From the sequence record OL362274.1: 47,726 nucleotides of DNA; one strand, 5' to 3'. Source of the stretch: Escherichia phage HC6. This document shows, one piece after another, positions 6,936 to 42,586 of this stretch. Positions within the stretch are counted from its first letter, which is position 1. Each line of letters begins with the position of its first letter. The notes beneath the pieces are model-generated. The model saw only the letters and a list, made by a program, of their open reading frames with translations, did not search any database and was not told the DNA's origin. The position numbers and the translations under genes were made by a program.

Positions 6936-7319
6936 TTAAAAAATAATTAATGTAGGCTGCAATTCTTCTTCATACCAGGTCCAACCAATGCACTGACCTT
7001 CCATTGCGTCAATGTGAGGCTTTACCCAATCCAAAAATGCCTGAATCTCACCGCTATAGTTTTTGATATCGCTACGGCTGAAGATGTATTGCTCTTCGCT
7101 ATAGTCAAATTTTGGGCAACTATTAACTACGGATGGGTGATGGTAAAAGCTACAGCAGTTACCAATAGAATCCCAGCGCGGCAGTGTAAAAAATTCATGG
7201 TCAGGGAGCTTTGCTGGCTTGTCGGCACCAGCAAACATATACCGGATTACATCCATCACTTCCTTTGGCGCATCTCCCTTAATCTGACACTTAAGAACTA
7301 GCTCTGTGTACATTCCCAT
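6936..7319 (-). CDS. hypothetical protein
   Basis: 127 aa; first gene of minus-strand island; no motif recognised. Confidence 0.6.
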   Translation of the reverse strand: MGMYTELVLKCQIKGDAPKEVMDVIRYMFAGADKPAKLPDHEFFTLPRWDSIGNCCSFYHHPSVVNSCPKFDYSEEQYIFSRSDIKNYSGEIQAFLDWVKPHIDAMEGQCIGWTWYEEELQPTLIIF

Positions 7320-7340
7320 CTTTTATTCCTCACTGTTTGG

Positions 7341-7382
7341 TTGATGTAGATAATATGCACCACCACTCAATCTACGTCAACA
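7341..7382. promoter_or_regulatory. divergent promoter region with paired TCTACRYCA motifs
   Basis: TTGATGTAGATAAT (inverted copy) and TCAATCTACGTCAACA between divergent genes 7319 and 7424. Confidence 0.4.
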
Positions 7383-7423
7383 CCATTGTGATAGAATTAA
7401 TTATTATTTGAACAGGAGGCAGA

Positions 7424-7864
7424 ATGAAACTATCGCAACGCGGCAAAGAACTAATCAAGTCGTTCGAGGGTTTTGAGCTTCGTGCTTATCCCGACCCAGC
7501 GACTGGTGGCGCCCCGTGGACCGCTGGTTATGGTCACACTGGTGCAGACGTTAAGCCCGGAATGACAGTGACGCAGGAGATGGCTAATGCATGGCTGGAT
7601 GGTGACGTGAAGAGGTTTGAGGATGGCGTATCGGCGCTGCTAACCGCACCAACCACTCAGTCGCAATTCGATGCAATGGTGTCGTTGGCATACAACATTG
7701 GTCTTGGCAACTTCCGCAAATCAACCCTGCTACGCAAGCATAACGAGAAATGCTACACCTGTGCTGCCAGCCAATTCCTCGTGTGGAATCGCGCCGCTGG
7801 TAAGGTTATGAATGGCCTGACACGGAGGCGTAACGCGGAACGCGCTATGTATATGGGGCAATGA
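7424..7864 (+). CDS. endolysin (GH24 lysozyme)
   Basis: 146 aa; AGGAGG RBS; LRAYPDP, GYGHTG and LAYNIG motifs resemble lambda R / P22 gp19-type lysozymes. Confidence 0.85.
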   Translation: MKLSQRGKELIKSFEGFELRAYPDPATGGAPWTAGYGHTGADVKPGMTVTQEMANAWLDGDVKRFEDGVSALLTAPTTQSQFDAMVSLAYNIGLGNFRKSTLLRKHNEKCYTCAASQFLVWNRAAGKVMNGLTRRRNAERAMYMGQ

Positions 7865-16755: not shown

Positions 16756-16761
16756 TAAAAC

Positions 16762-16784
16762 AAAGCCCCGTGAAGGGGCTTTGA
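16762..16784. terminator. bidirectional rho-independent terminator
   Basis: AAAGCCCC-gtgaa-GGGGCTTT between convergent genes. Confidence 0.6.
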
Positions 16785-16787
16785 TTG

Positions 16788-17327
16788 CTACAGACGCATA
16801 GGCATAACAACAATCTTCGCAGTCTCGCCAGATGGCGCACTAAGACAGCAAACTGCGGCATTTGTATTTCCATTCAGTTCAAATTTGACACAACAGAATT
16901 TAGGATTAAACAGCTTCGCCACTTTCTCAATATCAACAAGGTATCCAGCATTGAAGCCTATTTCCTCTGCTGCTTTCGTTTCCCTTGGTATAACGTGATC
17001 AATATCAGGGAATCGACCATCAATCTCTTCGCAGATACCAGCACCAACCATTGTGTCCATATGGCCGAAATGATAAGTAACGATTCCAGATTTTGTATCG
17101 ATGATCGCATGGTTATATTTCTTTTTCGGAGACTTGCTCACCTTTACAATCACACTTTCTGTCAGCTTATTGTCATGGCTGCCGCCAATAAATGCGCGAC
17201 GACCGTCAGTTGAGGCAATACGACCATCAGGCATGAAGCAGATGCCATTCAGGTAATACCGCACATCATTGCGAGCCTGAAATATTAATGCTGATTCAAG
17301 TAATAGTTTGCTTATTTTTAGTTTCAT
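16788..17327 (-). CDS. truncated DNA polymerase III beta sliding clamp (DnaN)-like protein
   Basis: 179 aa; DVRYYLNG, STDGRRA, DGRFPD, EIGFN and C-terminal VVMPMRL match E. coli DnaN domains II-III as I recall them; no domain I. Confidence 0.7.
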   Translation of the reverse strand: MKLKISKLLLESALIFQARNDVRYYLNGICFMPDGRIASTDGRRAFIGGSHDNKLTESVIVKVSKSPKKKYNHAIIDTKSGIVTYHFGHMDTMVGAGICEEIDGRFPDIDHVIPRETKAAEEIGFNAGYLVDIEKVAKLFNPKFCCVKFELNGNTNAAVCCLSAPSGETAKIVVMPMRL

Positions 17328-17500
17328 TTGATCACCTCAAATTTATATTTAGGCTCAGGCCATGTCGCGGTTCCGTCTTCCCATCGGACATATACTGGTT
17401 GAATTTTGTCCTCAATATCTACCTTCTCAACTACGCAAGGTAGCGGGTCATATTCTGGAATGATTATCTTATCTCCAACTTTTAAATCAGTTAATTCCAT
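17324..17500 (-). CDS. hypothetical small protein
   Basis: 58 aa (MELTDLKVGDKIIIPEYDPL...); ATGA overlaps at both ends; below track cutoff. Confidence 0.4.
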   Translation of the reverse strand: MELTDLKVGDKIIIPEYDPLPCVVEKVDIEDKIQPVYVRWEDGTATWPEPKYKFEVIK

Positions 17501-17673
17501 CACTTCACCTTAATCATGTGTTGTTTTGCAACCTTCAGGCATTCTTCAAAAATGCCGCCATTCTTAGCGCTCTGATTGCGCTTGTAATACTGAATTGCCA
17601 CATCAATTGCCATCTGGTCGATGTCAGGCAACTTGGTGCGAAGTTGTTTTTCAATGAATTGTTCTGGTGTCAT
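17500..17673 (-). CDS. hypothetical small protein
   Basis: 57 aa (MTPEQFIEKQLRTKLPDIDQ...); TAATG overlap with methyltransferase stop. Confidence 0.4.
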   Translation of the reverse strand: MTPEQFIEKQLRTKLPDIDQMAIDVAIQYYKRNQSAKNGGIFEECLKVAKQHMIKVK

Positions 17674-18473
17674 TAAACGGACCTCATGAATGCTTTAATG
17701 AATTCTTCTGCGACTTGTGGAACTATGGCATTACCATAACCGCGCAATCGTCCCACTCTTGCGGATACCCCATGAGTTGCCTCGCAAAATCCGCCTGGTA
17801 TGACTCTAGTTTCCTTATCTGCTCCATGGTTGGGTTTCCATGAATCCCATAAACATGAAGCCACATCTGGCGATAAAGAGTATCGTTCCTGAATTTCCCG
17901 TCCTTTCTGTAAAATGACTTGCTGAGATTCCCGTAATCCTTCCATCCTCGCGCCGTTGGTGTCGCCCATCCTCGCGCCAAAGATGATTCTTTTCCTTTCC
18001 TGTGGAGAGCCGACGCTGCAAGCTGGCAATACTGACGCCCCGCAGGCGTAGCCTTTGTCTTCCAGGTTAAGGAATACAAAATCGAGCCAGTGCTTCCCAA
18101 TTGCTGCTGCAACCTGCTCTCCAAACAGCAATTCAGGCTTGCACTCTCTGATGAGCCTGAGAAATGCTGGGGCAAGGTGTCGATCGTCGTCAAATCCGAG
18201 AGACTTACCGGCAACGCTAAACGGCTGGCAAGGTGGTGATCCTGTCCAGAGTCGAGTGCTTTCTGGTATTCCTGCCAGCTGGAGTGCAAGGGGCCACCCT
18301 CCGATTCCGGCAAAGAAGTGACACTGTGTAAATCCTTCCAGGTCTGAAGGGGTGACTTCGGTGATTGATCGTTCATCGACATATCCGTAAGGAATTAGTT
18401 TATTGTTAATTAATTCACGCAGCCATGCCGCTGCGCCCTTGTCCCACTCATTGTAATAGTGGACCATCATCAC
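17673..18473 (-). CDS. DNA (cytosine-5)-methyltransferase, compact
   Basis: 266 aa; FFAGIGG (motif I), PPCQPFS (motif IV), GEQV (motif VI), QERKR (motif VIII), GNAIV (motif X); little room for a target-recognition domain. Confidence 0.75.
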   Translation of the reverse strand: MMMVHYYNEWDKGAAAWLRELINNKLIPYGYVDERSITEVTPSDLEGFTQCHFFAGIGGWPLALQLAGIPESTRLWTGSPPCQPFSVAGKSLGFDDDRHLAPAFLRLIRECKPELLFGEQVAAAIGKHWLDFVFLNLEDKGYACGASVLPACSVGSPQERKRIIFGARMGDTNGARMEGLRESQQVILQKGREIQERYSLSPDVASCLWDSWKPNHGADKETRVIPGGFCEATHGVSARVGRLRGYGNAIVPQVAEEFIKAFMRSV

Positions 18474-19279
18474 ATCTTCTCCAGAATTGCCATCACCTCG
18501 TGAATATCAGCAACAGGAATCTTGATAAACTCCTCATTCTCTGCCACTACATGACCAGCAAGAAGAATAACGTGGTCAGCTGGCTTCAGTAACTCAATCA
18601 GTCGGTCTACTGGCTTAATCTTTTTCGACTTAAGCACCTTCGCCGTTACCTTATCCTTGCCTTGCGCCTTCGCTTCTTCGACTGCCTCGTCGATAACTTT
18701 AACCGCATCATCGCCATGTTCGCGAGTTACTGCTACGGCATTTGCATAGCTGATTTGCCCTGCACTGATTCGCGCTTTTACTTCGGCTGGCACATCACCC
18801 AGTGACAGGTGCATCTGCACGTCAGATACTGAACGGCCGACCTTTTTGGCGATTTCCTCATTGGTCCAGCCAAAGCCTTTCAGTCGCGTGTAAGCCTTTG
18901 CGCGCTCAAATGGGTCAAGCTGCTTACCCTGACTGGATGACACCATGAAGGCAATTTTATCGGCCTCATCGCCAGTGAAATCCTTACACTCAATACGAAC
19001 GATTGGTGCGCCGCGCTCAATGGCACGCAATGCGCCTAGATAGCGATGCTGACCATCAAGAATGCGGATTCCCTTCTCATCAGGAATAACTGTTAATGCT
19101 GGTAATGGCTGACCTGATTCCCAGCACTGCGCGAAATACTCCACATGCTGCTCGTCTGCTTCGCGGATGTTGTATCCCGGCTCCAGATAGATTTGCTCCA
19201 CTGGCACGAGATAGGTTTTGTTAACAGCGATTCCGTTGCGCGTTTCTTTGTCTGAATAGATTTTGCTAAGTGTTTTCAT
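18470..19279 (-). CDS. ParB-like nuclease domain protein
   Basis: 269 aa from ATG 19279; ILDGQHRY ParB/sulfiredoxin-type motif plus HTH-like EIAKKVGRSVSDV. Confidence 0.7.
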   Translation of the reverse strand: MKTLSKIYSDKETRNGIAVNKTYLVPVEQIYLEPGYNIREADEQHVEYFAQCWESGQPLPALTVIPDEKGIRILDGQHRYLGALRAIERGAPIVRIECKDFTGDEADKIAFMVSSSQGKQLDPFERAKAYTRLKGFGWTNEEIAKKVGRSVSDVQMHLSLGDVPAEVKARISAGQISYANAVAVTREHGDDAVKVIDEAVEEAKAQGKDKVTAKVLKSKKIKPVDRLIELLKPADHVILLAGHVVAENEEFIKIPVADIHEVMAILEKM

Positions 19280-19280
19280 A

Positions 19281-19472
19281 TCATTCACCACTTTCTTCCA
19301 ATAATTGCTCGTAATATGCGACGTACTCATTAGCAAGATGGTACAGGCGCTCAGCAGACTTGCGTTCTGCATTACTTAAGTCACCAATAGACTCAATGTT
19401 GCCAATTGCATCAACACAATCATTGAAGTCTTGCTCTGTATTACGAAATCGACAGTAGGACATGTTTGCCAT
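19281..19472 (-). CDS. hypothetical small protein
   Basis: 63 aa, acidic. Confidence 0.5.
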   Translation of the reverse strand: MANMSYCRFRNTEQDFNDCVDAIGNIESIGDLSNAERKSAERLYHLANEYVAYYEQLLEESGE

Positions 19473-19474
19473 GA

Positions 19475-20104
19475 TTAATCCTCATCACCAGAATTAGCAA
19501 TATCGTAAAACTGACCGTAGGTTATCTGCTTAAAGTTATCAGGTATCGTTACCTGTCCGTGACCTTCATCTTTTGTATTTGGCACAGCAAAAATCAAACA
19601 ATCATCCTTTTTCGGGTGTTTGCCTCCATAAGTAGAAAGCATTGCAAAACCAAATCCGCGACCAGATTGCTCACCAATGCCGGTACGTGCGATGCCATAA
19701 TGGTTAACAATGTAGTCCTTCCATTCTGGCAATAACTTTAATTTCTCGTTTGCCTCGCGCATCACTGCGTCCAGCTTTTTGTTGTATTCACGACCATCCT
19801 TTGTGTTTCCTTTCCCACGAACAATAACCACGCGCTGACCTTCCCAAAAATCTTCACGTTTTATTGTTACAGGGCATGGAAATTCAAATTTATTGCTCCA
19901 CGCAAAACTCTCAAGCAGGCCACCGCCAACAGCGCCCCAACTGCGCGTTGTGGTAAATGCGACAGCTCCAACCTTTTTCATTGCGTCACCGAGAATTTCA
20001 TTGCGGCGATTCTTGATGTCATCGTATGCGTCGATTAGTTTCTTAACATCATCACCTTCAACCATGTAATAATCATAATGTTTTGCGTTACTACTCATCT
20101 TCAT
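19475..20104 (-). CDS. hypothetical protein
   Basis: about 209 aa; first gene of minus-strand operon; start ATG 20104 or 20098 after GAGGTG; no motif recognised. Confidence 0.55.
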   Translation of the reverse strand: MKMSSNAKHYDYYMVEGDDVKKLIDAYDDIKNRRNEILGDAMKKVGAVAFTTTRSWGAVGGGLLESFAWSNKFEFPCPVTIKREDFWEGQRVVIVRGKGNTKDGREYNKKLDAVMREANEKLKLLPEWKDYIVNHYGIARTGIGEQSGRGFGFAMLSTYGGKHPKKDDCLIFAVPNTKDEGHGQVTIPDNFKQITYGQFYDIANSGDED

Positions 20105-20125: not shown

Positions 20126-20185
20126 TTTCTACGTCACTAACTATAAACGCCACATCAATCTACGTCAACAGGAATATGCTAAAAT
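20126..20185. promoter_or_regulatory. divergent promoter region with paired TCTACGTCA motifs
   Basis: TTTCTACGTCAC and TCAATCTACGTCAACA followed by TAAAAT -10-like hexamer; between divergent genes 20104 and 20216. Confidence 0.45.
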
Positions 20186-20215: not shown

Positions 20216-20335
20216 ATGGGTTCAACCAACTCACCATCTCGTTCGCGCGCTACTGGCAACACAAAAACTGGCGGCAAAACTGGCGTGGTGAAGCCAAACG
20301 GCTCTACCCGTTCACCATCGCGCGGTAAAAAATAA
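20216..20335 (+). CDS. small basic peptide
   Basis: 39 aa (MGSTNSPSRSRATGNTKTGGKTGVVKPNGSTRSPSRGKK); AGGAG RBS; stop overlaps next ATG. Confidence 0.35.
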   Translation: MGSTNSPSRSRATGNTKTGGKTGVVKPNGSTRSPSRGKK

Positions 20336-20775
20336 TGTTCGGCGCAGATGTTGCCATCATGATCATGTATGTGCTTGGATTTGCCTGCACGGGCATGGTT
20401 GCGTTTCTGGTGTTCATTCCGGCAATGGTGATGTCTGTGTATCTTGGATGGGTGCTTGTTGATTCATTTCCCGCCGAATATCTGTATTACCTTGCGCAGT
20501 GTATGGTCTGGTTGTTTCCGGCTATTGCGCTGCGTAAAAGTACAAAGATGGCGCTCTGCGTGCTGACGATGAGCCTTTACGAATGGCTGGTTGCGATAGA
20601 GTCATTCGTATGGGAATTTATCACGCCTGTAGAAACGCCGCTTCATGCGCAGTACGCATTTATTATTATCGGCATCCATCTGTTCATCCTTTCCATCACT
20701 TTTAAATGGGGCGGCGAAATTGGACATTATTCTTGGCGTGGTTGCCATCGTTTTTTCGCTGATTCAAATCTATAA
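20335..20775 (+). CDS. polytopic membrane protein
   Basis: 146 aa with several hydrophobic segments. Confidence 0.55.
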   Translation: MFGADVAIMIMYVLGFACTGMVAFLVFIPAMVMSVYLGWVLVDSFPAEYLYYLAQCMVWLFPAIALRKSTKMALCVLTMSLYEWLVAIESFVWEFITPVETPLHAQYAFIIIGIHLFILSITFKWGGEIGHYSWRGCHRFFADSNL

Positions 20776-22577: not shown

Positions 22578-22602
22578 AAAGCCGCATGAAGCGGCTTTTA
22601 AT
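22578..22602 (+). terminator. rho-independent terminator
   Basis: AAGCCGC-atga-AGCGGCTT then TTAATTT. Confidence 0.55.
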
Positions 22603-22603
22603 T

Positions 22604-22680
22604 TGGTGGACACGGACGGATTTGAACCTTCAATCAGCCGATTATTAGTCGGTTGCTTTAACCAATTAAGCTACGCGTCC
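22604..22680 (-). tRNA. tRNA, anticodon AAT (Ile-like) by hand fold
   Basis: 77 nt cloverleaf on minus strand: 7-bp acceptor stem, GCTT/AAGC D-stem, GGTTCAAATCC T-arm, encoded CCA; anticodon and isotype need tRNAscan-SE. Confidence 0.6.
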
Positions 22681-34426: not shown

Positions 34427-34918
34427 TCAGAAGGGAATGTCATCATCGAAGTCCATCGGAGTCTCATTGCCTCCTTGTTGGCTTTGTTGTTTTGGTTGCT
34501 GCTGTTGTTGTCGTTGCGGTTGTTGGCCTGATTGCTGGCGTGGTTGTTGTTGCCCTGCATCATCCCGCTTTCCACCAAGCATCTGCATAACACCGCCCAT
34601 CTGTGGAATTACAATCTCCGTTGTATATCGGTCAACTCCATTGCTGTCAGTCCACTTACGAGTGCGAAGTTGTCCTTCGATATAAACCTGCGAGCCTTTG
34701 CGAAGGTATTCTCCTGCAACTTCTGCAAGTTTTCCGAAGATGACCACGCGATGCCATTCAGTCTGCTCTTTCTTTTCTCCTGTCTGCTTATCTTTCCACT
34801 GCTCAGATGTTGCAACAGAAAGATTGGCAATTGCAGAGCCTGATGCTGAATATTTAACTTCAGGGTCGTTACCAACTCGACCAAGGATTATGCACTTATT
34901 AATACCAATCGAAGACAT
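34427..34918 (-). CDS. ssb: single-stranded DNA-binding protein
   Basis: 163 aa; OB-fold-like N-terminus, Gln/Gly-rich linker, canonical acidic tail DFDDDIPF. Confidence 0.95.
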
Positions 34919-35436
34919 TACTTGAATCTCCCGTTTTTATCTCTTAATCTGCCATTATGATTCTCTGTGGCGTGTAATGATGCGTGCTCTGACTTCGTCA
35001 TAAGCATTAGGTTACTTGGATGGTTGTTTGTTTTATCATGGTCTATATGATGAACGCATTCATTGTGAAACAACCTCCTCCCAATAATGCCTTCCATAAC
35101 TACGACATGTTCTCCTCTTCCTTTGTTTTCACCCATAGTTATCTCGACATAACCATTCGGTTTTACAGAGCGACCCTTGCCAACTCCTTTCTTTGATTTT
35201 GATATATTTTGCTTCCATTCTTCAGTAAACTTTCGTTTTTTACCCCTAAGTCCTGAACCAAGTCTTCCCTCTGCGGCAGCAATTCTTATTGCATCTCCTC
35301 TGCTTCTCAATATTCCGGCTTTCTTAAATCTAAACCTCAATGTTGACATGGCTATTCCTGTTTCATTGGAGATTTGAGGGATGCTCATGCCAGACAAATA
35401 CATATCAAACTCATTCATATGCACCTCCTTGTGCAA
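34918..35436 (-). CDS. HNH endonuclease
   Basis: [30 protein letters not shown] motif; N-terminal HTH-like region; start 35436 or 35418. Confidence 0.8.
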
Positions 35437-35498
35437 TATAGTAATTTACAACCATTAAGTCAACTTTTAATTACTTTATTTACGCCGCGTGCCATTTA

Positions 35499-36545
35499 TT
35501 AAAATCCTTCAATTGGAGTTGGTTTATGTTCTTGTTTTTCTTCCTGCGGTTCTGGCTGCTGTGGTTGCGGTTTAGCCAGTTTGGCAGGGTTGAAATTATC
35601 CTGAGGAGTGATTACCACAGGGGGTAATTGCTCATCATTGATAAAAGACTCAATGCGATCATATTCAGCAGCAGAAGCAGCGAGAGAAGGCCATATTGCA
35701 CGAATCTTATCTTTCAGGTTATCAGGTATTGATTTCGCCTCTTCCTTCAGTCCTTCCATTCCTTTTGCTGCTGAAAGCTGAAGTCGTGAGCGCCATGATT
35801 CAAACTCTTCGTCAACTTTAACACCAGAGTCCACCCATTTGATGAGTCCTCGACCATGAGCCTCTCCAATATAGCCATGACGAACGCTTTCACGACCAGA
35901 CTCAAAGAAGATGGGGCGTAGCTCTTCTGGTAATTTGGTGAACTCCTGAATTTTTCCTCCATCGTGCATCATCATGCTCACGGTCATCTCGAACATGAAA
36001 TCTTTCTCGCACACTGGCTGTAACCCAAGTGATACAGGTTCCTTCGGGTTTGCGAAGTCAGTTTTCTGGCGAGCGCGAAGACAGACAATGATATGCATAT
36101 TGCTTTGTAGCATGGCATTCATGAACTTCTTGTGTTCAGCTTTGGCGCGCTTCCAGTCAGCCATCTTTTTACCGTTAAGCAGCGGCTTTTCAGCAATCTC
36201 CGTGCAACTGCCTTCACCTTCCCATTCATGCGAACCTGAATCAATAACAAGAACCTTAACGCCGGCAGCCTGAAACTCTTCAATGGCCTGACGGTAACGG
36301 GCCGGGCTGAATGGAGCATACATATCAGCGTGCAGGAATTTGCCATCAAGGATGTTTGAGTACAGGCGACCGCGACCATTTTCAGTATCAAGGAATCCGA
36401 TTTCTTCTGGTGAGTCAACCATCCCGCGAGCCAGCTTAAGTGCGCTGTATGTTTTTCCGCTACCAGACTGGCCTGAAATACCGATGACTACACGAGAACC
36501 TGAACGCTCTGCTGGTTTAATATTGAGAATACCCATTTTCATCAC
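35499..36545 (-). CDS. Sak4-like RecA-fold ATPase
   Basis: Walker A GQSGSGKT near N-terminus; about 346 aa; next to SSB and exonuclease. Confidence 0.65.
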   Translation of the reverse strand: MMKMGILNIKPAERSGSRVVIGISGQSGSGKTYSALKLARGMVDSPEEIGFLDTENGRGRLYSNILDGKFLHADMYAPFSPARYRQAIEEFQAAGVKVLVIDSGSHEWEGEGSCTEIAEKPLLNGKKMADWKRAKAEHKKFMNAMLQSNMHIIVCLRARQKTDFANPKEPVSLGLQPVCEKDFMFEMTVSMMMHDGGKIQEFTKLPEELRPIFFESGRESVRHGYIGEAHGRGLIKWVDSGVKVDEEFESWRSRLQLSAAKGMEGLKEEAKSIPDNLKDKIRAIWPSLAASAAEYDRIESFINDEQLPPVVITPQDNFNPAKLAKPQPQQPEPQEEKQEHKPTPIEGF

Positions 36546-36553
36546 CTCACTAA

Positions 36554-37498
36554 TTATAAATTAAACTGTTTTTTGAACCATTCAGGCGTTTCCATTTCTA
36601 TGACAGGATTACCCATTGAATAACCGGGCCACGAATTGGCTTTTTTGCACGCCTTGTAAATTTCCATAGCGCCATGCAACTGAATTCGACCGATGCGTAA
36701 TTGCTCTTCAGTCAAGCGAATTAACGCAGGAATAAATGGTGCTTTCTTTTCCTGAACGAGAAGATTAACAGAGCGTGGCGCATGACCATATGCCGCAACA
36801 AACATGTCGTGCTGCATCGCCATTTTCATAAAGTACCCAAGTCTCGCAGCATGACGGAAAAACTCTTCTGGCTTGGCGCTCACCGCTGTTTTGTAGTCGA
36901 TGATGTCGCCACCTTTGGTAAGGCAGTCAAAGCGAACTTTTGCCTTCTCTCCGTTAAGTTCACCTAGAATTGACACTTCAGCATAAGCACCAGCGAGAAG
37001 ACTGCTGTAATAGCTGTTTGCGTGGATTACAGCACGCATTTGCTGAATAGCGTCATAATCACCACCTTCCAGCATTTGCTTTCCTACAGCAGCTTTTTCA
37101 GCCTCTTCACGGATGACATCGTAAATTTTCACTGGCTCGCCAGTCGCCTGGATGATTTTGATCACCTCAGCTTTCGACTTTCCTGAAAGTCCTTTGATGC
37201 CTCGTTCTTTTGCCCATGAGTTCATATCACTTACAGTAACAAGCAGGTCATCACCAAAATCTTCTTTGGTTGGCATTCGTGCATATTCAGCATCAAAACG
37301 CTCTGGTTCAAGCAACGCAGTATGGCTACCTGTACCGAATATAAGAGCTTTTGATTGCTCATCCTCTTCGTCTTTGTATCGCCATGCTGCCGGGCATCTG
37401 TCAAGTATATTCCATAATCCAGAACCATTAATGTGCTCTGTGTCAGCATGATAATCCTGATTGCTTAATTCATTGTTGAAATAAACTCTCATCATCAC
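36554..37498 (-). CDS. PD-(D/E)xK family exonuclease
   Basis: 314 aa; D...IIDYKT resembles PD-(D/E)xK core; context with Sak4-like and SSB. Confidence 0.6.
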   Translation of the reverse strand: MMMRVYFNNELSNQDYHADTEHINGSGLWNILDRCPAAWRYKDEEDEQSKALIFGTGSHTALLEPERFDAEYARMPTKEDFGDDLLVTVSDMNSWAKERGIKGLSGKSKAEVIKIIQATGEPVKIYDVIREEAEKAAVGKQMLEGGDYDAIQQMRAVIHANSYYSSLLAGAYAEVSILGELNGEKAKVRFDCLTKGGDIIDYKTAVSAKPEEFFRHAARLGYFMKMAMQHDMFVAAYGHAPRSVNLLVQEKKAPFIPALIRLTEEQLRIGRIQLHGAMEIYKACKKANSWPGYSMGNPVIEMETPEWFKKQFNL

Positions 37499-38121
37499 TC
37501 TCCGTGGTTACAGAATTCTTTATGCATCTTTTCTCTGAATTTCATCACAGACAACCTCGCTCTCTCAATATCATTGAATAACCCAAGATGGTATCTTTTC
37601 CCGTTAACATCACAGTAAGCATGCCACTTTTTAACCTGTTTTTGCCAATACACACCTTTAACTCCTGATGTGTTATTTTTTGGTTTTTTAGCGTTATACT
37701 GGTTCTGCATATTTGTTGCGATTCTTAAGTTGCAAATCCTGTTATCGTCACGCACACCGTTAATGTAATCAATTTGACCTTCAGGCCAGAAACCATAATA
37801 AATCAACCATGCCAAGCGATGCGCGTAGTATCTTTTATTATTTATGCTTATCTCTATGTATCCGTTATGTTTTTTCCTGCCAGCGACAATACCCTTTCTT
37901 ACACCTCCACCCGTCTTATTTCTAATGAAAACCCCTGTTTCATGGTTGTAATTTAAGCTATCCAAAACAACATAACGTGGTATTCTTTTTCTTCTTCCTA
38001 TGGTGTTTGACTCTGCACTTCCCTGAGCAAAATCTTGCTTTTGCAGTTCCGATAAACTCATTTCCACAAACCTCGCACTTCTTAACGGTGATAGCCATTT
38101 CTTACCCTCTATTGTAATCAT
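37495..38121 (-). CDS. HNH homing endonuclease with AP2-like domain
   Basis: AHRLAWLIYYG...IDYIN...DNRICNLR and GVKGVYW...KW.A motifs; paralog of 24..536. Confidence 0.8.
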   Translation of the reverse strand: MITIEGKKWLSPLRSARFVEMSLSELQKQDFAQGSAESNTIGRRKRIPRYVVLDSLNYNHETGVFIRNKTGGGVRKGIVAGRKKHNGYIEISINNKRYYAHRLAWLIYYGFWPEGQIDYINGVRDDNRICNLRIATNMQNQYNAKKPKNNTSGVKGVYWQKQVKKWHAYCDVNGKRYHLGLFNDIERARLSVMKFREKMHKEFCNHGE

Positions 38122-38166
38122 TTTCCGTTACATTGCAAGTAACTTTTATTTGTTACTAACGATACA

Positions 38167-38592
38167 TTAATCTACGTCATCCAGCAAGCCAAAATAGAAA
38201 AGCGTGGCTTTTTTTAATTCATCAAGCCCATAAGCTATGGCAGCATAATGACCAAGCCTGCACATCTCTGTTAGCACTGCTGATTGATCCTTGCTCACCC
38301 TGCTTTTGCTTTTATCGCGGCGCTTTGCTTCAATCATCCCACAACTGTGATTTACCCCCGGAGTCATTATCACATTGTCGCCTATACCAGCCTTAACCCC
38401 CATCTTCTGGCGCTTCAGCACAAACTGCACCCTGCTTGATGTGCCAGTTTCGTTGGGTACATGAAACCACAGAACATCAGGGAAGCGGTGTTGCATCCAT
38501 GTTCCGTAACCCATCTGGTCAGTCTCCTCTTTAGGACACTCACCACGATAACCGCTATCAAATACCCATATGCCGCTATCAAGCTGCTTCAC
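38167..38592 (-). CDS. VRR-NUC domain nuclease
   Basis: 141 aa; GIGDNVIMTPG...IEAKRR...SKDQ fits VRR-NUC pattern as recalled. Confidence 0.6.
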   Translation of the reverse strand: MKQLDSGIWVFDSGYRGECPKEETDQMGYGTWMQHRFPDVLWFHVPNETGTSSRVQFVLKRQKMGVKAGIGDNVIMTPGVNHSCGMIEAKRRDKSKSRVSKDQSAVLTEMCRLGHYAAIAYGLDELKKATLFYFGLLDDVD

Positions 38593-40507
38593 TTTGTTCT
38601 CCTTTAAATTCTTTGCGGTGGATTATGTCTCTGCCTTTATCATTAATTCGATGCGTTATGCGTTTTGGCGCTTTAATTAATCCCGCATACATCATGAATT
38701 GCTTGGCGTTCTGGCATTTCAGTATTTTCCCAGCCATTGACTTATCATCAAGGTGAGGAAAAACCGCCTTTGCCTTGAACATGTTTTTCATGTGAGTTGC
38801 GCCGCCATAAGGGTAGAAAACTTCATTAGCCCAGCCTTCTTTGCCATCACAACGGTTAATCCAGTAGCGATATAAAATCCCCTCTCCGTCCTTCGTTAGT
38901 TGAACCTTGAAATCCATAACATCAGCCCACTCGTTATCTGTATAAGCACGCTCATTCAGTGCCGAATTAGGGTCGCGCAACACGTGATCGCAATGTCTGC
39001 AATAGCGCGCAGTGGGGTCGTTTTTAGTGCCGCAACCATCATCAAAAATCCGGATTCCGTGCTTATCAAAACCGCAACGGATGTAACTGAAAAATTCTTC
39101 GCAGCGACCATCTGGAGATAGCGGGTCTTTCCCTATGCATCGACGCGCATATGGGCTGTTCATTGTTCCACATGTATGACACGGAACTTGTTCGCCACTG
39201 CGTTTTGAACGTTGCGCTTCAGCCTCTTCCAGAATCGGGTCTTCATACAGCTGACCAAGCTCAAACATCGTGCCAGAGAAATCAAGAACCAGATGGTCTT
39301 CTTTATGATACCCGGCATCAATTTGCTCTTTCTTCAGTAGGCGCATTCCGCGACCAAGAAGCTGGACAAGGAGAGTTAGCGACATTATTTTTCGCAATAT
39401 GCAGCTCGTATCCCATAACGGTATATTTACGCCAGTGGTAAGGGCGGCTATCTGGAATGTGAATTTTTTACGCCCGGTGTATGCATCTTTTAGAGCATTC
39501 CTTCTGGCTTTTGACCCCATATCTTCTGTAACTATTGAATAACTTCCTTCGGGTAGGTATTTTGCCGCCTCCTGACAATGTTTTTTACCAGCACATGTAA
39601 TCAGTACGCCGTTTCTGTTTTTAGTCAACTCCATAACCTTGAGCATGATTTTCTGCGTCAACGTACCTTGCTCAAGAATTTCTTTCTGCATCTGCTTGAG
39701 CTGCTCGGCGGTAAAGTCCTGAGTACCATCAACATCTGAACCATGAAAATCCGAAAGGTCATAATGCAGACTATCAACATCATGAAGACCAAAAATTGTT
39801 GGAACAAGAAAACCGTTTTCAACCATGTACTTGGTGTCTATGTTGATAATCTCTTTCTTCCAGAAAGCGCCTTTTATTGATGTAGTTCCGCGAAACGGTG
39901 AGCCTGTATAACCTATTATTCTCAACTCATGGCCATGCTTATCTTTACACCTTTTCATTAGCTCATTAATTATCACTGCATACTGCGTATCACCATTATT
40001 AACAACATCAATGTCATTAACCATATGATTTTCATCGATCAGCAGGAATCTTGGGCAAAAGTCAGAGAGCGCACCTTTTGCAATAACATTCCCATGCTCA
40101 TCTTTTTTATCAAACAAAGCATTTACAACAGTACCCTCAGAACCACAGATTATTGGGTACGTAGAACTTTTCCTACCCAACGAAGCACTGAATAGCGAGT
40201 TTCTAACACCAAGCAACCATAGCTCTTCCGCATCTTGCTCCACTATTTCGCCCTGTCTTGATAAAATCATCCCTGAATAGCCCATCTCCTGAAAACGCTT
40301 TGCTATCATGGCAATCATCAGTGACTTTCCGCTACCGACACTTGCTGTTACATAGCTTGGGCCAACATAATGACGAATCACATCGCCAGTTAACTTATAT
40401 ATCAACCACTGATAGGGTCTTGGCTCGATATCACCAGTATCCAGATAAGATTTCAGCAGATTAATATCAATCTCTGAAATCATTTTGTCGATTTTATGCA
40501 TTACCAA
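38579..40507 (-). CDS. SF2 DNA helicase with C-terminal zinc-ribbon extension
   Basis: Walker A SVGSGKS, motif II LIDENH, motif III TGSP; C-terminal about 200 aa with several Cys pairs. Confidence 0.8.
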   Translation of the reverse strand: MVMHKIDKMISEIDINLLKSYLDTGDIEPRPYQWLIYKLTGDVIRHYVGPSYVTASVGSGKSLMIAMIAKRFQEMGYSGMILSRQGEIVEQDAEELWLLGVRNSLFSASLGRKSSTYPIICGSEGTVVNALFDKKDEHGNVIAKGALSDFCPRFLLIDENHMVNDIDVVNNGDTQYAVIINELMKRCKDKHGHELRIIGYTGSPFRGTTSIKGAFWKKEIINIDTKYMVENGFLVPTIFGLHDVDSLHYDLSDFHGSDVDGTQDFTAEQLKQMQKEILEQGTLTQKIMLKVMELTKNRNGVLITCAGKKHCQEAAKYLPEGSYSIVTEDMGSKARRNALKDAYTGRKKFTFQIAALTTGVNIPLWDTSCILRKIMSLTLLVQLLGRGMRLLKKEQIDAGYHKEDHLVLDFSGTMFELGQLYEDPILEEAEAQRSKRSGEQVPCHTCGTMNSPYARRCIGKDPLSPDGRCEEFFSYIRCGFDKHGIRIFDDGCGTKNDPTARYCRHCDHVLRDPNSALNERAYTDNEWADVMDFKVQLTKDGEGILYRYWINRCDGKEGWANEVFYPYGGATHMKNMFKAKAVFPHLDDKSMAGKILKCQNAKQFMMYAGLIKAPKRITHRINDKGRDIIHRKEFKGEQSEAA

Positions 40508-40764
40508 ATCCTCGCACCAAGACGTTCAATTGTTTGTTTCTTTGTTTCATCATCTATTCCGCTATAAAAATACATATAACTAAGATTCCATAGATAATCT
40601 TCTGGTCGCTCATCGGCAAACAAATCATCCCACTCAAAAATCCATTCTCCAGTTCTCTGTCTTCTGTATATGGTTAGCCATGTATTGCTTCGTGGCGGGT
40701 ATCCGAAGGCAACAGGGATTGGCTTGCCATGAAAAATCCTCTTAAAAATGCTATCAAGGAACAC
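40501..40764 (-). CDS. hypothetical protein
   Basis: 87 aa, Trp/Tyr-rich. Confidence 0.5.
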   Translation of the reverse strand: MFLDSIFKRIFHGKPIPVAFGYPPRSNTWLTIYRRQRTGEWIFEWDDLFADERPEDYLWNLSYMYFYSGIDDETKKQTIERLGARIW

Positions 40765-40786
40765 TGCTATATCCTTTTATTGATGT

Positions 40787-40824
40787 TTCTACGTCAGTTA
40801 GCTTATACTCAATCTACACCAACA
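40787..40824. promoter_or_regulatory. divergent promoter region with paired TCTACRYCA motifs
   Basis: TTTCTACGTCAG and TCAATCTACACCAACA between divergent genes 40764 and 40840. Confidence 0.4.
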
Positions 40825-40839
40825 ATCAAGGGTAAATTT

Positions 40840-41793
40840 ATGAGATACGACTGGAAAGACATTGAGCCAAAAATGATCGGAAATTGGCAAGCTGCCATCA
40901 TGTCTATCGTCAATGTGGATAGCAGAGTTTTCAATGGCAAGCACCAGCCATGCCCGTCATGCTCAGGAAAAGACAGGTATCGCTTTGATGACAACTTCGA
41001 AACAAAAGGCGATGGCGGCGCAATCTGCAATCAGTGCGGTTCCGGCAGCGGCATGAATTGGCTGATGAAACTCTCCGGAATGAGCTTTCCTGAAGCGCTG
41101 GAGGCACTTGGTGGATTCCTGAATATGCACCCGCGTGAAAAGCTGGAGGCAATCAGGAAAGAGCTACCGAAGATAAATCACAGCGATGACTTCATCACCG
41201 AGCAGGAAGTCGCAGCAATCATGGCTAAAACGACTCGTGTCGCGATGAATGAGTGGACTTTGATAAATGGTATTGGTTGCGACGTTAACGTCACCAGAGG
41301 CAAATCTGGAGAACTTATTGCGGTTGAGATGATGCGAGCTGACACAATGAAACTGTGCAACGTGGCATTCATTGGCATGGATGGTGATTCAATCAGAACG
41401 TTTTTCCGCGCAGGATACAACAAGGACTCAGCCATCAACGGCAAACTCACGCGCGGCGCGATAAGCCCAATCGGAGAAGACAACGGGAAGTTCATTTACC
41501 TGGTATCTGATTATGCCGATGCGTGGAAATGCCACTACTTCACTGGCGCTCATGCCTGGTGCTGCTGGTCGCCGGAAAACATGTGGGAGGTTGTGCGCTC
41601 GGTTAGCGATGAAACGAAGGCGAGATTGCGCTGCATAGTTAATTATAAATTCGACGAACTTTGCGCTGCGGAAAATGCAGGGCTTCCGGTGATGCTTCCT
41701 GATGATGCTGAAACAATAAGGATGGCAAAGAGAATCAGGAGAAAGATTTATGACGCTGGCGAGCTGATAGAGAAAATGCCAGTAAGCAGATAA
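40840..41793 (+). CDS. DNA primase (zinc-binding plus Toprim-like)
   Basis: 317 aa from ATG 40840; CPSCSGKDRYRFDD...CNQCGSGSG zinc-binding motif typical of phage primases. Confidence 0.65.
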   Translation: MRYDWKDIEPKMIGNWQAAIMSIVNVDSRVFNGKHQPCPSCSGKDRYRFDDNFETKGDGGAICNQCGSGSGMNWLMKLSGMSFPEALEALGGFLNMHPREKLEAIRKELPKINHSDDFITEQEVAAIMAKTTRVAMNEWTLINGIGCDVNVTRGKSGELIAVEMMRADTMKLCNVAFIGMDGDSIRTFFRAGYNKDSAINGKLTRGAISPIGEDNGKFIYLVSDYADAWKCHYFTGAHAWCCWSPENMWEVVRSVSDETKARLRCIVNYKFDELCAAENAGLPVMLPDDAETIRMAKRIRRKIYDAGELIEKMPVSR

Positions 41794-41797
41794 AATA

Positions 41798-41822
41798 AAC
41801 CCTCCGACTGGAGGGTTTTTGT
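41798..41822. terminator. bidirectional rho-independent terminator
   Basis: AACCCTCC-gact-GGAGGGTTTTTGTT. Confidence 0.6.
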
Positions 41823-42127
41823 TATGCTTTGATGTTAACTTTTATTGCGAACACTTCCACCGGGTCAGGACCGAAGTGTGGGTGGGTGATGGTCTTAACC
41901 GTCCATCCATCGTATGGGATATCAATACGCCTGGATTTATCGTCCTTCTTTGGATATCCTTTTGTGATAATTAACCTTTCGTACTTCCTTCCAATCTGTC
42001 CGCTGTCTTTAAAGTTAATAAGGCGCTTCTTCCAGTAGTCATTAAAAAGGCGATACTCTTCCGTTTTCTCTCCGCGAATCATGGCATCGAAGTATTCACC
42101 TTTGACAGCAAGTTGCAGGTTAGCCAT
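41822..42127 (-). CDS. ASCH domain protein
   Basis: about 101 aa from ATG 42127; GEKTEEYR resembles ASCH pattern. Confidence 0.5.
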   Translation of the reverse strand: MANLQLAVKGEYFDAMIRGEKTEEYRLFNDYWKKRLINFKDSGQIGRKYERLIITKGYPKKDDKSRRIDIPYDGWTVKTITHPHFGPDPVEVFAIKVNIKA

Positions 42128-42384
42128 TACCGCGCCTCCAGTCTCCATACCGCCTGACCAATCCGGCTGGCATAGGTGTCTTTGGATACCGCTCCGTCTT
42201 TAGCCAGCTCCATAAGAATTTTTCGCAAATCTGCCGAACGCCATTCTTCATCAGGAAATTCCTTCTCCATTGCCAACCGCAAATTCCATGTTGCTATCCT
42301 GAATGGATATTCCCCGCCGAGAGCTTTCTCTTGCAGGGCAGCCCGGGAACGCATCACCTGCAAAACCTTCTCTTTTACATCCAT
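42127..42384 (-). CDS. hypothetical protein
   Basis: 85 aa track ORF. Confidence 0.5.
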   Translation of the reverse strand: MDVKEKVLQVMRSRAALQEKALGGEYPFRIATWNLRLAMEKEFPDEEWRSADLRKILMELAKDGAVSKDTYASRIGQAVWRLEAR

Positions 42385-42394
42385 TTCCTTACCC

Positions 42395-42586
42395 TCACTT
42401 AATCATCAATTTTGAAATGTCAACATAACCAACAGAAAATCTGCGCCAGTAATCATCAAGTACGTGGTAATTAGATCGAATCCATACTTTGTTAATCCCA
42501 GACCAGAAAAACCACGTCGAATAACCATACGGTCTGAAATTCCATGAGCCTTCTGAGCGGCAAAGTTCGCCTGATATTGTTATCAT
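42395..42586 (-). CDS. hypothetical small protein
   Basis: 63 aa track ORF. Confidence 0.4.
   Translation of the reverse strand: MITISGELCRSEGSWNFRPYGYSTWFFWSGINKVWIRSNYHVLDDYWRRFSVGYVDISKLMIK

What the first reader, a model, noticed from the sequence alone, without database searches (positions are those of the whole stretch)
16788..20104. Seven-gene minus-strand accessory operon inserted in the virion structural region
Seven tightly coupled genes (ATGA or TAATG overlaps at most junctions) run opposite to the flanking late genes, between a bidirectional terminator and a motif-bearing divergent promoter. They encode an unknown 209-aa protein, a 63-aa protein, a ParB-like nuclease-domain protein, a compact C5-methyltransferase, two tiny proteins and the DnaN-like mini-clamp. 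The combination suggests a DNA modification, anti-restriction or host-replication takeover module, but that is inference.
Basis: partly seen in the sequence, partly recalled or inferred. Interest (0 to 1): 0.7.

Follow-up and report, generated by a model that had tools for sequence, protein, structure and literature searches.

The report
Phage accessory operon with hidden gene
The seven tightly packed opposite-strand genes are real, but they are a fixed three-gene backbone (a ParB-like DNA-binding protein, a tiny protein and a cut-down copy of the bacterial DNA sliding clamp) plus swappable cargo, and the DNA methylase among the cargo hides an eighth, overlapping gene.

Summary
The window is Escherichia phage 6947, a Skatevirus-like siphovirus. 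The seven minus-strand genes exist as described: junctions of +2 to -4 nt, a Shine-Dalgarno site before each, one sigma-70-like promoter and one terminator hairpin.

They are not a seven-gene module. In about 50 relatives only ParB-like, the 57-aa g5 and the mini-clamp recur at this position. Eac/DUF5420, the 63-aa and 58-aa proteins and the methylase are sporadic cargo that occurs elsewhere in unrelated contexts.

Three points go beyond the annotation.
- The 179-aa mini-clamp is DnaN domain II plus the last half of domain III. It lacks domain I and the ring interface but keeps the partner-binding pocket. It belongs to a large ~180-aa phage family. About 26 of 70 viable genome-reduced seszw mutants have lost it, while all keep ParB.
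- The methylase alpha chain lacks motif IX. A conserved +1-frame ORF inside it supplies that motif, as in M.EcoHK31I. This beta chain is unannotated.
- A 9-bp box, TGAYGTAGA, occurs 12 times (0.57 expected), at cluster boundaries.

Functions of the backbone genes are inferred, not shown. Relatives with this methylase remain sensitive to restriction systems.

The parts
16761..16783 (.). Terminator hairpin CAAAGCCCC-loop-GGGGCTTTG between the convergent 281-aa plus-strand gene and g7
   Evidence: The stem has 9 bp (6 GC) and a T-run follows on the minus strand. The plus-strand tail is weaker.
16788..17327 (-). g7, a 179-aa mini beta-clamp: DnaN domain II joined to the second half of domain III. 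The partner-binding pocket is kept; domain I and the dimer interface are absent.
17324..17500 (-). g6, a 58-aa cargo protein of unknown function, found at this position only in phages 6947 and HC8A
17500..17673 (-). g5, a 57-aa protein (phrog_4439). It is the conserved upstream partner of the mini-clamp in Skatevirus-like phages.
17673..18470 (-). g4, the C5-cytosine methyltransferase alpha chain (265 aa). It carries motifs II, I, IV (PPCQPFS), VI (GEQV), VIII (QERKR) and X (GNAIVPQV), but not motif IX.
17723..18382 (-). Unannotated +1-frame ORF inside g4, the putative methyltransferase beta chain. It holds the variable W-x-T-P region and motif IX (ARQLMGYPQEW). The start is uncertain: ATG 18382, or TTG 18289 with GGAGG 8 nt upstream.
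   Evidence: precedent
18470..19279 (-). g3, a 269-aa ParB-like DNA-binding protein: ParB/Srx N-domain with a DGQHR (GxxR) motif plus a ParB/KorB-type HTH
19281..19472 (-). g2, a 63-aa acidic cargo protein (phrog_8760) of unknown function
19475..20098 (-). g1, a 207-aa Eac/DUF5420-family cargo protein. The predicted fold has no close solved relative.
20140..20168 (-). Sigma-70-type promoter TTGACG-17 nt-TATAGT that drives the operon
20159..20167 (-). TGACGTAGA box 1, overlapping the -35 element
20128..20136 (-). TGACGTAGA box 2, just downstream of the -10 element and about 29 nt before the g1 start codon

Best explanation
This is one polycistronic operon, read by host RNA polymerase from a consensus-like sigma-70 promoter and closed by a hairpin terminator. 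It sits antisense between the capsid and head-tail genes of a Skatevirus-like virulent phage.

It is a conserved slot rather than a module. The backbone runs: promoter with two TGACGTAGA boxes, then the ParB-like protein, then g5, then the mini-clamp, then the terminator. Variable cargo is inserted at two hot spots, one promoter-proximal and one between ParB and g5/mini-clamp. In this phage the cargo is Eac/DUF5420, a 63-aa protein, a two-chain C5-methyltransferase and a 58-aa protein.

Proposed mechanisms (inferred).
1. The methyltransferase works as an alpha/beta heterodimer. Its beta chain (variable region plus motif IX) is translated from the +1 frame inside the alpha gene, as in M.EcoHK31I. 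It methylates phage DNA at one sequence and so gives only narrow protection.
2. The mini-clamp cannot form a ring but keeps the clamp-binding-motif pocket. It therefore binds, off DNA, host proteins that normally dock on the beta clamp (Pol III alpha or delta, Hda, MutS/L, translesion polymerases). It would act as an adaptor or a decoy for a phage that has no DNA polymerase of its own.
3. The ParB-like protein binds phage DNA as a regulator or organiser and is the indispensable member.
For: Operon anatomy (shown).
- Gene junctions and Shine-Dalgarno sites.
- Promoter and terminator.

Slot model (shown).
- Synteny in 80 loci.
- Cargo catalogue of more than 25 gene clusters in 50 relatives. It includes a PHROG-labelled anti-restriction protein, an HNH endonuclease and endonuclease VII.
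- The two boxes are conserved upstream of whichever gene comes first in 41 of 50 relatives.

Methyltransferase alpha/beta.
- Frame A lacks motif IX, and frame B carries ARQLMGYPQEW.
- The +1 frame stays open for 223-306 codons in six diverged homologues. Only 0-9 of 5000 codon shuffles reach this, and the +2 frame has 10-23 stops.
- Window versus L094: frame A identity is 64/44/70% across the N-terminal, middle and C-terminal parts; frame B identity is 42/67/44%. The substitution phase switches accordingly (chi-square p = 0.0026).
- 200 database proteins match frame B.
- The M.EcoHK31I precedent.

Mini-clamp.
- It aligns with E. coli DnaN 136-~250 and 314-366.
- 1192 cluster representatives match at E <= 1e-3, and the listed best 150 are mostly 170-220 aa.
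- The family consensus equals the E. coli residue at 17 of 18 pocket positions (pocket list).
- Pocket columns have mean conservation 0.73 against 0.37 elsewhere (Mann-Whitney p = 8e-7), and 10 of the 20 most conserved columns are pocket residues.
- No DNA polymerase was found among the ten replication-module proteins scanned, and none is annotated in the record.
- In lambdoid prophages the gene lies between cII and the replication genes.

ParB-like protein.
- 95-99% aa identity in 133 phage records.
- Retained in 70 of 70 seszw-derived genomes, whereas the mini-clamp is missing from 26.
Against: - No experiment bears on any of the three mechanisms in this phage.
- Pocket residues are also the most conserved part of full-length DnaN, so their retention could partly reflect fold constraints.
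- The AlphaFold model is only moderate (pLDDT 68.6) and poor in the pocket-forming linker 107-131.
- The mini-clamp and g5 are dispensable for plaque formation.
- Some phages that carry the mini-clamp have their own polymerase, for example the Kagunavirus group.
- No phage protein has a terminal clamp-binding motif, so no partner is identified.
- The start of the beta chain is unresolved: ATG 18382 has no Shine-Dalgarno site.
- Pfam and PDB sequence searches do not recognise frame B.
- ParB retention in the mutants may reflect that the gene was not targeted rather than that it is essential.
- The box is not palindromic, which is unusual for a ParB or HTH-dimer site.
Confidence: 0.6

Rival explanations
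1. One reading: the seven genes form one co-inherited module for DNA modification, anti-restriction or host-replication takeover.
For: The genes are tightly translationally coupled under one promoter. DNA-related functions are present: MTase, ParB-like protein and a DnaN fragment. Relatives carry a PHROG-labelled anti-restriction protein in the same slot.
Against: Only three of the seven genes co-occur across relatives. The MTase, Eac and the mini-clamp are each found in unrelated contexts. Bas77-80 carry the MTase, but the group is reported as markedly RM-sensitive.
Confidence: 0.08
2. The ParB-like protein and the methyltransferase work as a pair. ParB loads onto or spreads along phage DNA and activates or targets the MTase, as ParB176 does for a phage thymine dioxygenase and as the ParB-MTase fusions suggest.
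For: g3 and g4 overlap (TGATG). Wherever relatives have an MTase of this family, it lies directly downstream of ParB. Published precedents exist: a ParB-dependent 5mYOX, and ParB-methyltransferase fusions enriched in phages.
Against: Most relatives have ParB without any MTase (46 of 53). The 97%-identical MTase in Bas71 has no ParB neighbour. In P2-like and Mu-like elements the MTase family also stands alone.
Confidence: 0.15
3. The ParB-like protein is a KorB-like global regulator. Its operators would be the TGAYGTAGA boxes at the boundaries of the non-structural gene clusters, including its own promoter (autoregulation).
For: The protein hits HTH_ParB and the KorB domain. There are 12 boxes against 0.57 expected, at cluster boundaries. 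Two boxes cover the -35 and +1 regions of the operon promoter and are conserved in 41 of 50 relatives. The protein is highly conserved and retained in all reduced genomes.
Against: The box is asymmetric and occurs in both orientations relative to promoters. It overlaps a TTGACG -35 element, so it may simply be a promoter element. Other small DNA-binding proteins of the phage were not examined. No binding data exist.
Confidence: 0.25
4. The mini-clamp is a genuine ring-forming processivity factor for phage replication.
For: It is homologous to DnaN. It is annotated as 'DNA polymerase III beta subunit'. It lies next to replication genes in lambdoid prophages.
Against: It has only 1.5 domains. 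Domain I and residues 251-313, which carry the interface residues I272/L273 and E298/E304, are absent. It scores 31 bits against the TIGR00663 cut-off of 137.65. It is dispensable.
Confidence: 0.07
5. The mini-clamp is a decaying fragment of a captured host dnaN gene with no function.
For: It is non-essential in the laboratory.
Against: More than a thousand 50%-identity clusters match, and the listed ones share the same ~180-aa architecture. Conservation is selective for the pocket. The protein is 80-90% conserved within the phage group. It has intact translational coupling and a Shine-Dalgarno site.
Confidence: 0.03

Closest known systems
E. coli beta sliding clamp DnaN (e.g. PDB 1MMI, 2POL)
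   Same: Clear sequence homology (E = 3e-9). The hallmark segments DVRYYLNG, TDGxR, DGRFPD, EIGFNxxY and VVMPMRL are all present. The family consensus keeps 17 of 18 residues of the clamp-binding-motif pocket.
   Different: 179 aa against 366 aa. There is no domain I and no first half of domain III, so no dimer interface and presumably no ring. It falls below the NCBIfam and Pfam cut-offs. It forms its own large family of ~180-aa phage proteins.
M.EcoHK31I heterodimeric C5-methyltransferase
   Same: The beta chain is encoded in another reading frame inside the alpha gene. [quoted passage not shown]
   Different: Here the variable W-x-T-P region that lies under purifying selection is in the beta frame, whereas the TRD of M.EcoHK31I is described as part of alpha. 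The N-terminal motif order is II then I. Sequence relatedness to M.EcoHK31I itself could not be tested, and activity is untested.
ParB/Spo0J, Noc and KorB proteins, and orphan phage ParB-like proteins such as ParB176
   Same: ParB/Srx N-domain with a GxxR motif plus a ParB-type HTH. It is an orphan ParB on a phage, next to a DNA-modifying enzyme, like the cases.
   Different: The motif is DGQHR instead of GERR. The box III residues E and N are replaced by S. It scores below the TIGR00180 cut-off. No ParA is annotated in the record, no palindromic parS was identified, and no C-terminal dimerisation domain was detected.
Skatevirus seszw genes 16-19 (genome-reduction study, NAR 2022)
   Same: The same slot and backbone: ParB-like protein, g5-like protein and mini-clamp between the capsid and head-tail genes.
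   Different: seszw carries a PHROG-labelled anti-restriction protein instead of Eac, g2, the MTase and g6. It supplies the only experimental data: mini-clamp and g5 can be deleted, and ParB is retained.
P22 EaC / DUF5420 proteins of enterobacterial prophages
   Same: g1 is 51-73% identical over its full length to proteins named Eac or DUF5420.
   Different: Here the gene is in a virulent siphovirus operon. Its function is unknown in every context. The Pfam score is below the cut-off.

Membership tests
Bacterial beta sliding clamp (DnaN, TIGR00663 / PF00712+PF02767+PF02768) | Three-domain protomer that reaches the curated family score | tested here: not met
   TIGR00663 scores 31.2 bits against a cut-off of 137.65. 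PF02768 scores 15.5 against 27. Only DnaN 136-~250 and 314-366 are represented.
Bacterial beta sliding clamp (DnaN) | Head-to-tail dimer interface (I78/F106 with I272/L273, E298, E304) that closes a ring | tested here: not met
   Both halves of the interface lie in segments that are absent from g7 (alignment; interface residues).
Bacterial beta sliding clamp (DnaN) | Hydrophobic pocket that binds clamp-binding motifs (subsites I and II) | tested here: met
   14 of 18 pocket residues are identical in g7, and 17 of 18 in the consensus of 130 diverse family members. Pocket columns are far more conserved than the rest (p = 8e-7). Actual peptide binding is not testable here.
RusA-like Holliday junction resolvase (the PHROG 3007 and RefSeq label for g7 homologues) | Sequence or fold relationship to RusA | tested here: not met
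   No RusA family appears in the Pfam or NCBIfam results. The best PDB sequence and fold matches are all beta clamps.
ParB/Spo0J partition protein (TIGR00180) | ParB N-domain with a GxxR nucleotide-binding motif plus an HTH | tested here: met
   HTH_ParB scores 43.9 bits against a cut-off of 22.6. The protein aligns with Spo0J 1VZ0 at E = 6e-13. The motif DGQHR aligns with GERR.
ParB/Spo0J partition protein (TIGR00180) | Curated family score, catalytic E of GERR and N of ENLQR, a ParA partner and a parS site | tested here: not met
   TIGR00180 scores 38.9 against 58.45. E is replaced by Q and the box III E/N by S/S. No ParA is annotated in the genome. No palindromic site was identified.
C5-cytosine DNA methyltransferase (PF00145) | Family score and the catalytic motifs I, IV (PCQ), VI (ENV), VIII (QxRxR) and X (GNxxxP) | tested here: met
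   PF00145 scores 79.6 bits against 22. The motifs are located by alignment with M.HhaI and with family members.
C5-cytosine DNA methyltransferase (PF00145) | Motif IX in the same polypeptide | tested here: not met
   Frame A has no motif IX between motifs VIII and X. The sequence ARQLMGYPQEW is found only in the +1 frame.
M.EcoHK31I-type two-chain methyltransferase | Beta chain encoded in another frame inside the alpha gene and under selection; alpha holds I-VIII and X, beta holds IX | tested here: met
   The +1 frame is open in 6 of 6 diverged homologues (0-9 of 5000 shuffles reach this). The substitution phase and the identity profile switch A-B-A (p = 0.0026).
M.EcoHK31I-type two-chain methyltransferase | Both chains are required for methylation; beta is translated in vivo | not testable with these tools
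   This needs expression of alpha, beta and alpha+beta, and proteomics.
Eac / DUF5420 (PF17457) | Family membership by sequence | tested here: inconclusive
   The direct Pfam score is 15.3 against a cut-off of 26. However, full-length homologues at E down to 1e-100 are named Eac or DUF5420, and one carries PF17457.
Bacterial or phage operon | Co-directional genes with minimal spacing, one upstream promoter and one downstream terminator | tested here: met
   A common transcript has not been shown.
Anti-restriction module | Confers resistance to restriction-modification systems | tested here: inconclusive
   There are no data for this phage. Relatives Bas77-80 carry the same MTase, and the group is reported as markedly sensitive to the RM systems tested. 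No PADLOC or anti-defence match exists beyond the MTase.

The most novel reading that the evidence does not exclude
The ~180-aa 'pocket-only' half beta-clamps form a widespread, uncharacterised class of phage proteins. They occur in Skatevirus-like, Dhillonvirus, Guernseyvirinae, Hungariovirus and Naesvirus phages, Vibrio and Proteus phages, and lambdoid prophages. The proposal is that they act as soluble receptors for clamp-binding motifs. They would either divert host replisome or repair proteins to the phage, or act as decoys that titrate clamp-targeting factors. That would be a new way for viruses to manipulate the bacterial sliding-clamp interaction hub.
Probability: 0.35. Interest if true: 0.75.

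Novelty: new variant of a known kind. Interest (0 to 1): 0.5.

Why it matters
The beta clamp is the central docking hub of bacterial replication and repair and is a drug target. A large phage family that keeps only its docking pocket would be a natural tool for probing or blocking that hub. It would also show how polymerase-less phages engage the host replisome.

The overlapping alpha/beta methyltransferase matters for annotation. An architecture treated as a curiosity of M.EcoHK31I appears to be conserved in a phage and prophage methylase family found in Skatevirus-like, Kagunavirus, Mu-like and P2-like elements, and it is not annotated in the records examined here (ON637251, Bas79, KpV2811). 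Methylome predictions based on the alpha chain alone would then be wrong.

The slot-plus-cargo anatomy, together with the public seszw deletion genomes, gives a ready system for testing accessory genes. It also marks the ParB-like protein as the member worth deleting first.

Tried and rejected
- Mini-clamp structure. Only near relatives could be used for the alignment, and the model is moderate (pLDDT 68.6). Foldseek still returns only beta clamps, but with poor TM-scores, so no structural detail is claimed.
- Search for a phage-encoded client. No protein of the phage has a clamp-binding-like motif at either terminus. The strict pattern hit only an internal QMHLSL in the ParB HTH. Both were rejected as evidence.
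- PADLOC. Only generic MTase models matched.
- Pfam and PDB sequence searches with the frame-B product found nothing. The case for beta rests on comparative evidence.
- I first treated frame B as a shadow ORF and phrog_1008 as an artefact family. I dropped that view after the shuffle and substitution-phase tests.
- TAGATT within the box as a -10 element. No acceptable -35 lies at 17 nt, so this was not adopted. The TTGACG-17-TATAGT reading was kept.
- ParB and g5 profile searches in distant mini-clamp loci. ParB is adjacent in only two further loci, and g5 in none. The ParB-clamp linkage is therefore confined to this phage group.
- The supplementary gene table of the seszw paper is not held. 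Deposited mutant genomes were counted instead.
- Literature searches found no paper that characterises phage half-clamps or this operon.

Full report
**What the window is.** The region is 100% identical to Escherichia phage 6947 (ON637251.1, 47,726 bp). Window coordinates are record coordinates plus 23. Its relatives are Salmonella, Escherichia, Shigella and Klebsiella siphoviruses of the cluster that the BASEL authors group as Skatevirus, Bas77-81. Ten proteins of the replication module were scanned. They include a DUF3987 protein, a zinc-ribbon primase, an SNF2-type helicase, an AAA_24 protein, a PDDEXK-like protein, SSB and an HNH endonuclease. None is a DNA polymerase, and none is annotated in the record.

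Seven minus-strand ORFs fill 16788-20098.
- The junctions are +2, +1, -1, -1, -1 and -4 nt, and each start has a Shine-Dalgarno-like sequence.
- The most likely g1 start is ATG 20098 (207 aa).
- A 9-bp GC-rich hairpin at 16761-16783 separates g7 from the convergent upstream gene. The scan scores it as a terminator on the minus strand only.
- A TTGACG-17-TATAGT promoter (10 of 12 matches) at 20168..20140 faces the operon.
- The 'motif' is TGAYGTAGA. It occurs 12 times in the genome against 0.57 expected, at boundaries of gene clusters.
- Two copies lie here, one over the -35 element and one just after the -10 element.
- This tandem pair is conserved upstream of the first gene of the operon in 41 of 50 relatives, whichever gene comes first.

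**What the genes are.**
- g2 (63 aa) belongs to phrog_8760 and g5 (57 aa) to phrog_4439. Both are of unknown function.
- g6 (58 aa) has one 60%-identical homologue in a Klebsiella phage.
- g3 is ParB-like. It hits HTH_ParB (2.9e-11) and the KorB domain, and it aligns with T. thermophilus Spo0J at 6e-13. It carries DGQHR in place of GERR and lacks the box III E/N residues. It scores below the TIGR00180 cut-off.
- g4 is a C5-methyltransferase (PF00145, 3.8e-22; M.HhaI, 4.5e-12). Its motif II precedes motif I.
- g7 is homologous to E. coli DnaN residues 136-~250 (domain II) and 314-366 (the last beta-alpha-beta-beta-beta unit of domain III). The PHROG and RefSeq label 'RusA-like Holliday junction resolvase' has no support.

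**The seven genes do not travel together.** I collected 80 IMG/VR loci that encode the mini-clamp and searched them for all seven proteins and the flanking genes.
- In the roughly 55 Skatevirus-like loci the cluster always lies between the capsid and head-tail genes. It always contains ParB-like, g5 and the mini-clamp (53 loci).
- The MTase appears in 7 loci, g2 in 15, Eac in 10 and g6 in none.
- Cataloguing the ORFs of 50 such clusters gave more than 25 different cargo families. They include a PHROG 'anti-restriction protein', an HNH endonuclease, endonuclease VII and many unknown small proteins.
- Cargo sits at two places, promoter-proximal and between ParB and g5/mini-clamp.
- The MTase is 97% identical to that of Kagunavirus Bas71. 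There it lies between a Holliday junction resolvase and a helicase gene.

So this is a conserved slot with a fixed backbone and exchangeable cargo. It is not a module and not a recent insertion.

**Public experimental evidence.** The Skatevirus seszw was subjected to CRISPR-based genome reduction, and many mutant genomes were deposited. I counted records at >=99% identity.
- The capsid gene is present in 72 records (70 without a host entry, which are the mutants).
- The ParB-like gene is present in 70 records (70 without a host entry).
- The mini-clamp is present in 47 records (44 without a host entry).
- The smallest mutant (36,975 bp) lacks the g5-like gene and the mini-clamp but keeps ParB and the gene upstream of it.

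The mini-clamp and g5 are therefore dispensable for growth in the laboratory. ParB was never lost. That is consistent with essentiality but does not prove it. ParB is also as conserved as the capsid protein, at 95-99% in 133 records. [quoted passage not shown] Bas77-80 carry this MTase.

**The mini-clamp.**
- A search of 1.84 billion cluster representatives found 1192 relatives at E <= 1e-3. The best 150 are mostly 170-220 aa. This is a distinct family, not a one-off truncation.
- It occurs in many phage genera. It is often a lone antisense gene inside the head-gene cluster, as in Bcep43, Guernseyvirinae SE1 and Dhillonvirus 'rolling', where it lies next to an Nmad5 protein.
- In Hungariovirus C130_2 it lies between a Dam methylase and a second gene annotated as a DNA methyltransferase that has no Pfam match.
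- In lambdoid prophages it lies directly after cII and before the replication genes.
- I used the published list of pocket residues. g7 keeps 14 of 18, and the consensus of 130 diverse members keeps 17 of 18. The exception, V344, is itself variable in clamps.
- Pocket columns are far more conserved than the rest (0.73 against 0.37, p = 8e-7). Ten of the 20 most conserved columns are pocket residues.
- The segments that carry the dimer interface (I78/F106, I272/L273, E298/E304) are absent.

My inference is a non-ring protein that still binds clamp-binding motifs and acts as an adaptor or a decoy. No phage protein has a terminal motif of this kind, so a host partner is more likely. All of this is inference.

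**A hidden eighth gene.** Inside g4 the +1 frame is open from 18382 to 17723 (219 codons) and matches phrog_1008 at 8e-20.
- Frame A contains motifs II, I, IV, VI, VIII and X but no motif IX. Frame B contains ARQLMGYPQEW, which resembles RECARVMGYPDSY of M.HhaI, and W-x-T-P repeats.
- The +1 frame is open for 223-306 codons in all six diverged homologues examined, including Mu-like and P2-like elements. Only 0-9 of 5000 codon shuffles reach this, and the +2 frame has 10-23 stops.
- Between the window and the P2-like homologue, frame A identity is 64/44/70% across the N-terminal, middle and C-terminal parts. Frame B identity is 42/67/44%.
- Substitutions peak at the frame-A wobble position in the N-terminal and C-terminal parts. 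They peak at the frame-B wobble position in the middle (chi-square p = 0.0026).
- Two hundred database proteins match frame B, down to about 31% identity at 95% coverage.
- This is the architecture described for M.EcoHK31I, where beta is encoded in another frame within alpha, alpha carries I-VIII and X, and beta carries IX.
- The start of beta is unresolved. The candidates are ATG 18382 without an SD, or TTG 18289 with GGAGG 8 nt upstream, a position that is ATG in a Mu-like homologue.
- The ORF is not annotated in ON637251, Bas79 or KpV2811.

**How it most likely works.**
- Shown: the operon anatomy, the gene identities, the slot-and-cargo pattern, the dispensability of the mini-clamp and g5, and dual-frame selection in the MTase.
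- Inferred: host RNA polymerase transcribes the operon from the sigma-70-like promoter.
- Inferred: the alpha/beta enzyme methylates one sequence on phage DNA and protects only against matching restriction enzymes.
- Inferred: the mini-clamp binds clients of the host clamp off DNA.
- Inferred: the ParB-like protein binds phage DNA as a regulator or organiser. It may act at the TGAYGTAGA boxes, and where an MTase is present it may assist it, given the precedents for phage ParB proteins that partner DNA-modifying enzymes.

**Verdict.** The cluster as such is an ordinary, already annotated accessory region of a known phage group. The pocket-only half-clamp family and the overlapping alpha/beta methylase are the parts that deserve follow-up.

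Noticed in passing
window 17723-18382 (-), inside g4: An unannotated +1-frame ORF carries C5-methyltransferase motif IX and W-x-T-P repeats. It is conserved and under selection in diverged homologues, which fits an M.EcoHK31I-like beta chain.
   Followed up: yes
window 2001, 7342, 7371, 10129, 10154, 20128, 20159, 24557, 38171, 40788, 44753, 44770: The 9-bp box TGAYGTAGA occurs 12 times against 0.57 expected, at boundaries of gene clusters. It appears singly, in tandem (17 or 31 bp apart) or as inverted or everted pairs (7342/7371, 10129/10154). Whether it is a promoter element or an operator is undecided.
   Followed up: partly
g7 homologues in RefSeq phage records (e.g. NC_054642.1 gp17, L090 2156-2692): PHROG 3007 and many RefSeq records label this DnaN-derived protein 'RusA-like Holliday junction resolvase'. 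No search supports that name.
   Followed up: yes
L087 3998-4579 (Bcep43 gp15); L088 3968-4483; L086 3998-4510; L075, L077, L081 at ~7001-7537: The mini-clamp gene recurs as a lone antisense gene inside head-gene clusters of unrelated phage genera. In lambdoid prophages it lies directly between cII and the replication genes. In Dhillonvirus 'rolling' its neighbour is an Nmad5 (nucleotide-modification-associated) protein.
   Followed up: partly
window 17673-18470 (-), residues 5-60 of g4: Motif II (YYNEWDK) precedes motif I (FFAGIGGW). This is an N-terminal permutation relative to M.HhaI and is shared by the whole phage and prophage MTase family.
   Followed up: partly
window 34427-44136: The ten replication-module proteins scanned include helicases, a primase, SSB, a recombinase-like AAA_24 protein and a PDDEXK nuclease, but no DNA polymerase. 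The phage presumably depends on host Pol III.
   Followed up: partly
P0432 (289-aa metagenomic protein): This protein reads MTase frame A up to about residue 103 and frame B afterwards. It is either a natural frameshift variant or an assembly error of the same gene family.
   Followed up: no
L089 3480-3938 (KpV2811 gp34); L028 6347-6841: In Klebsiella relatives an endonuclease VII gene follows the MTase in the frame-B register, which makes one 449-codon open frame. In another relative an HNH endonuclease occupies the same cargo site.
   Followed up: no
window 22607-22680 (-) (record 22584-22657): The GenBank record annotates a tRNA-Ile on the minus strand within the head-tail gene region. I did not check it with ARAGORN.
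   Followed up: no
window 20216-20775 (+): The first plus-strand genes across the divergent region encode a 39-aa basic S/T/G-rich peptide and a 146-aa membrane protein labelled lipoprotein. The lipoprotein-like gene is deleted in the smallest seszw mutant, so these may be accessory rather than structural genes.
   Followed up: no
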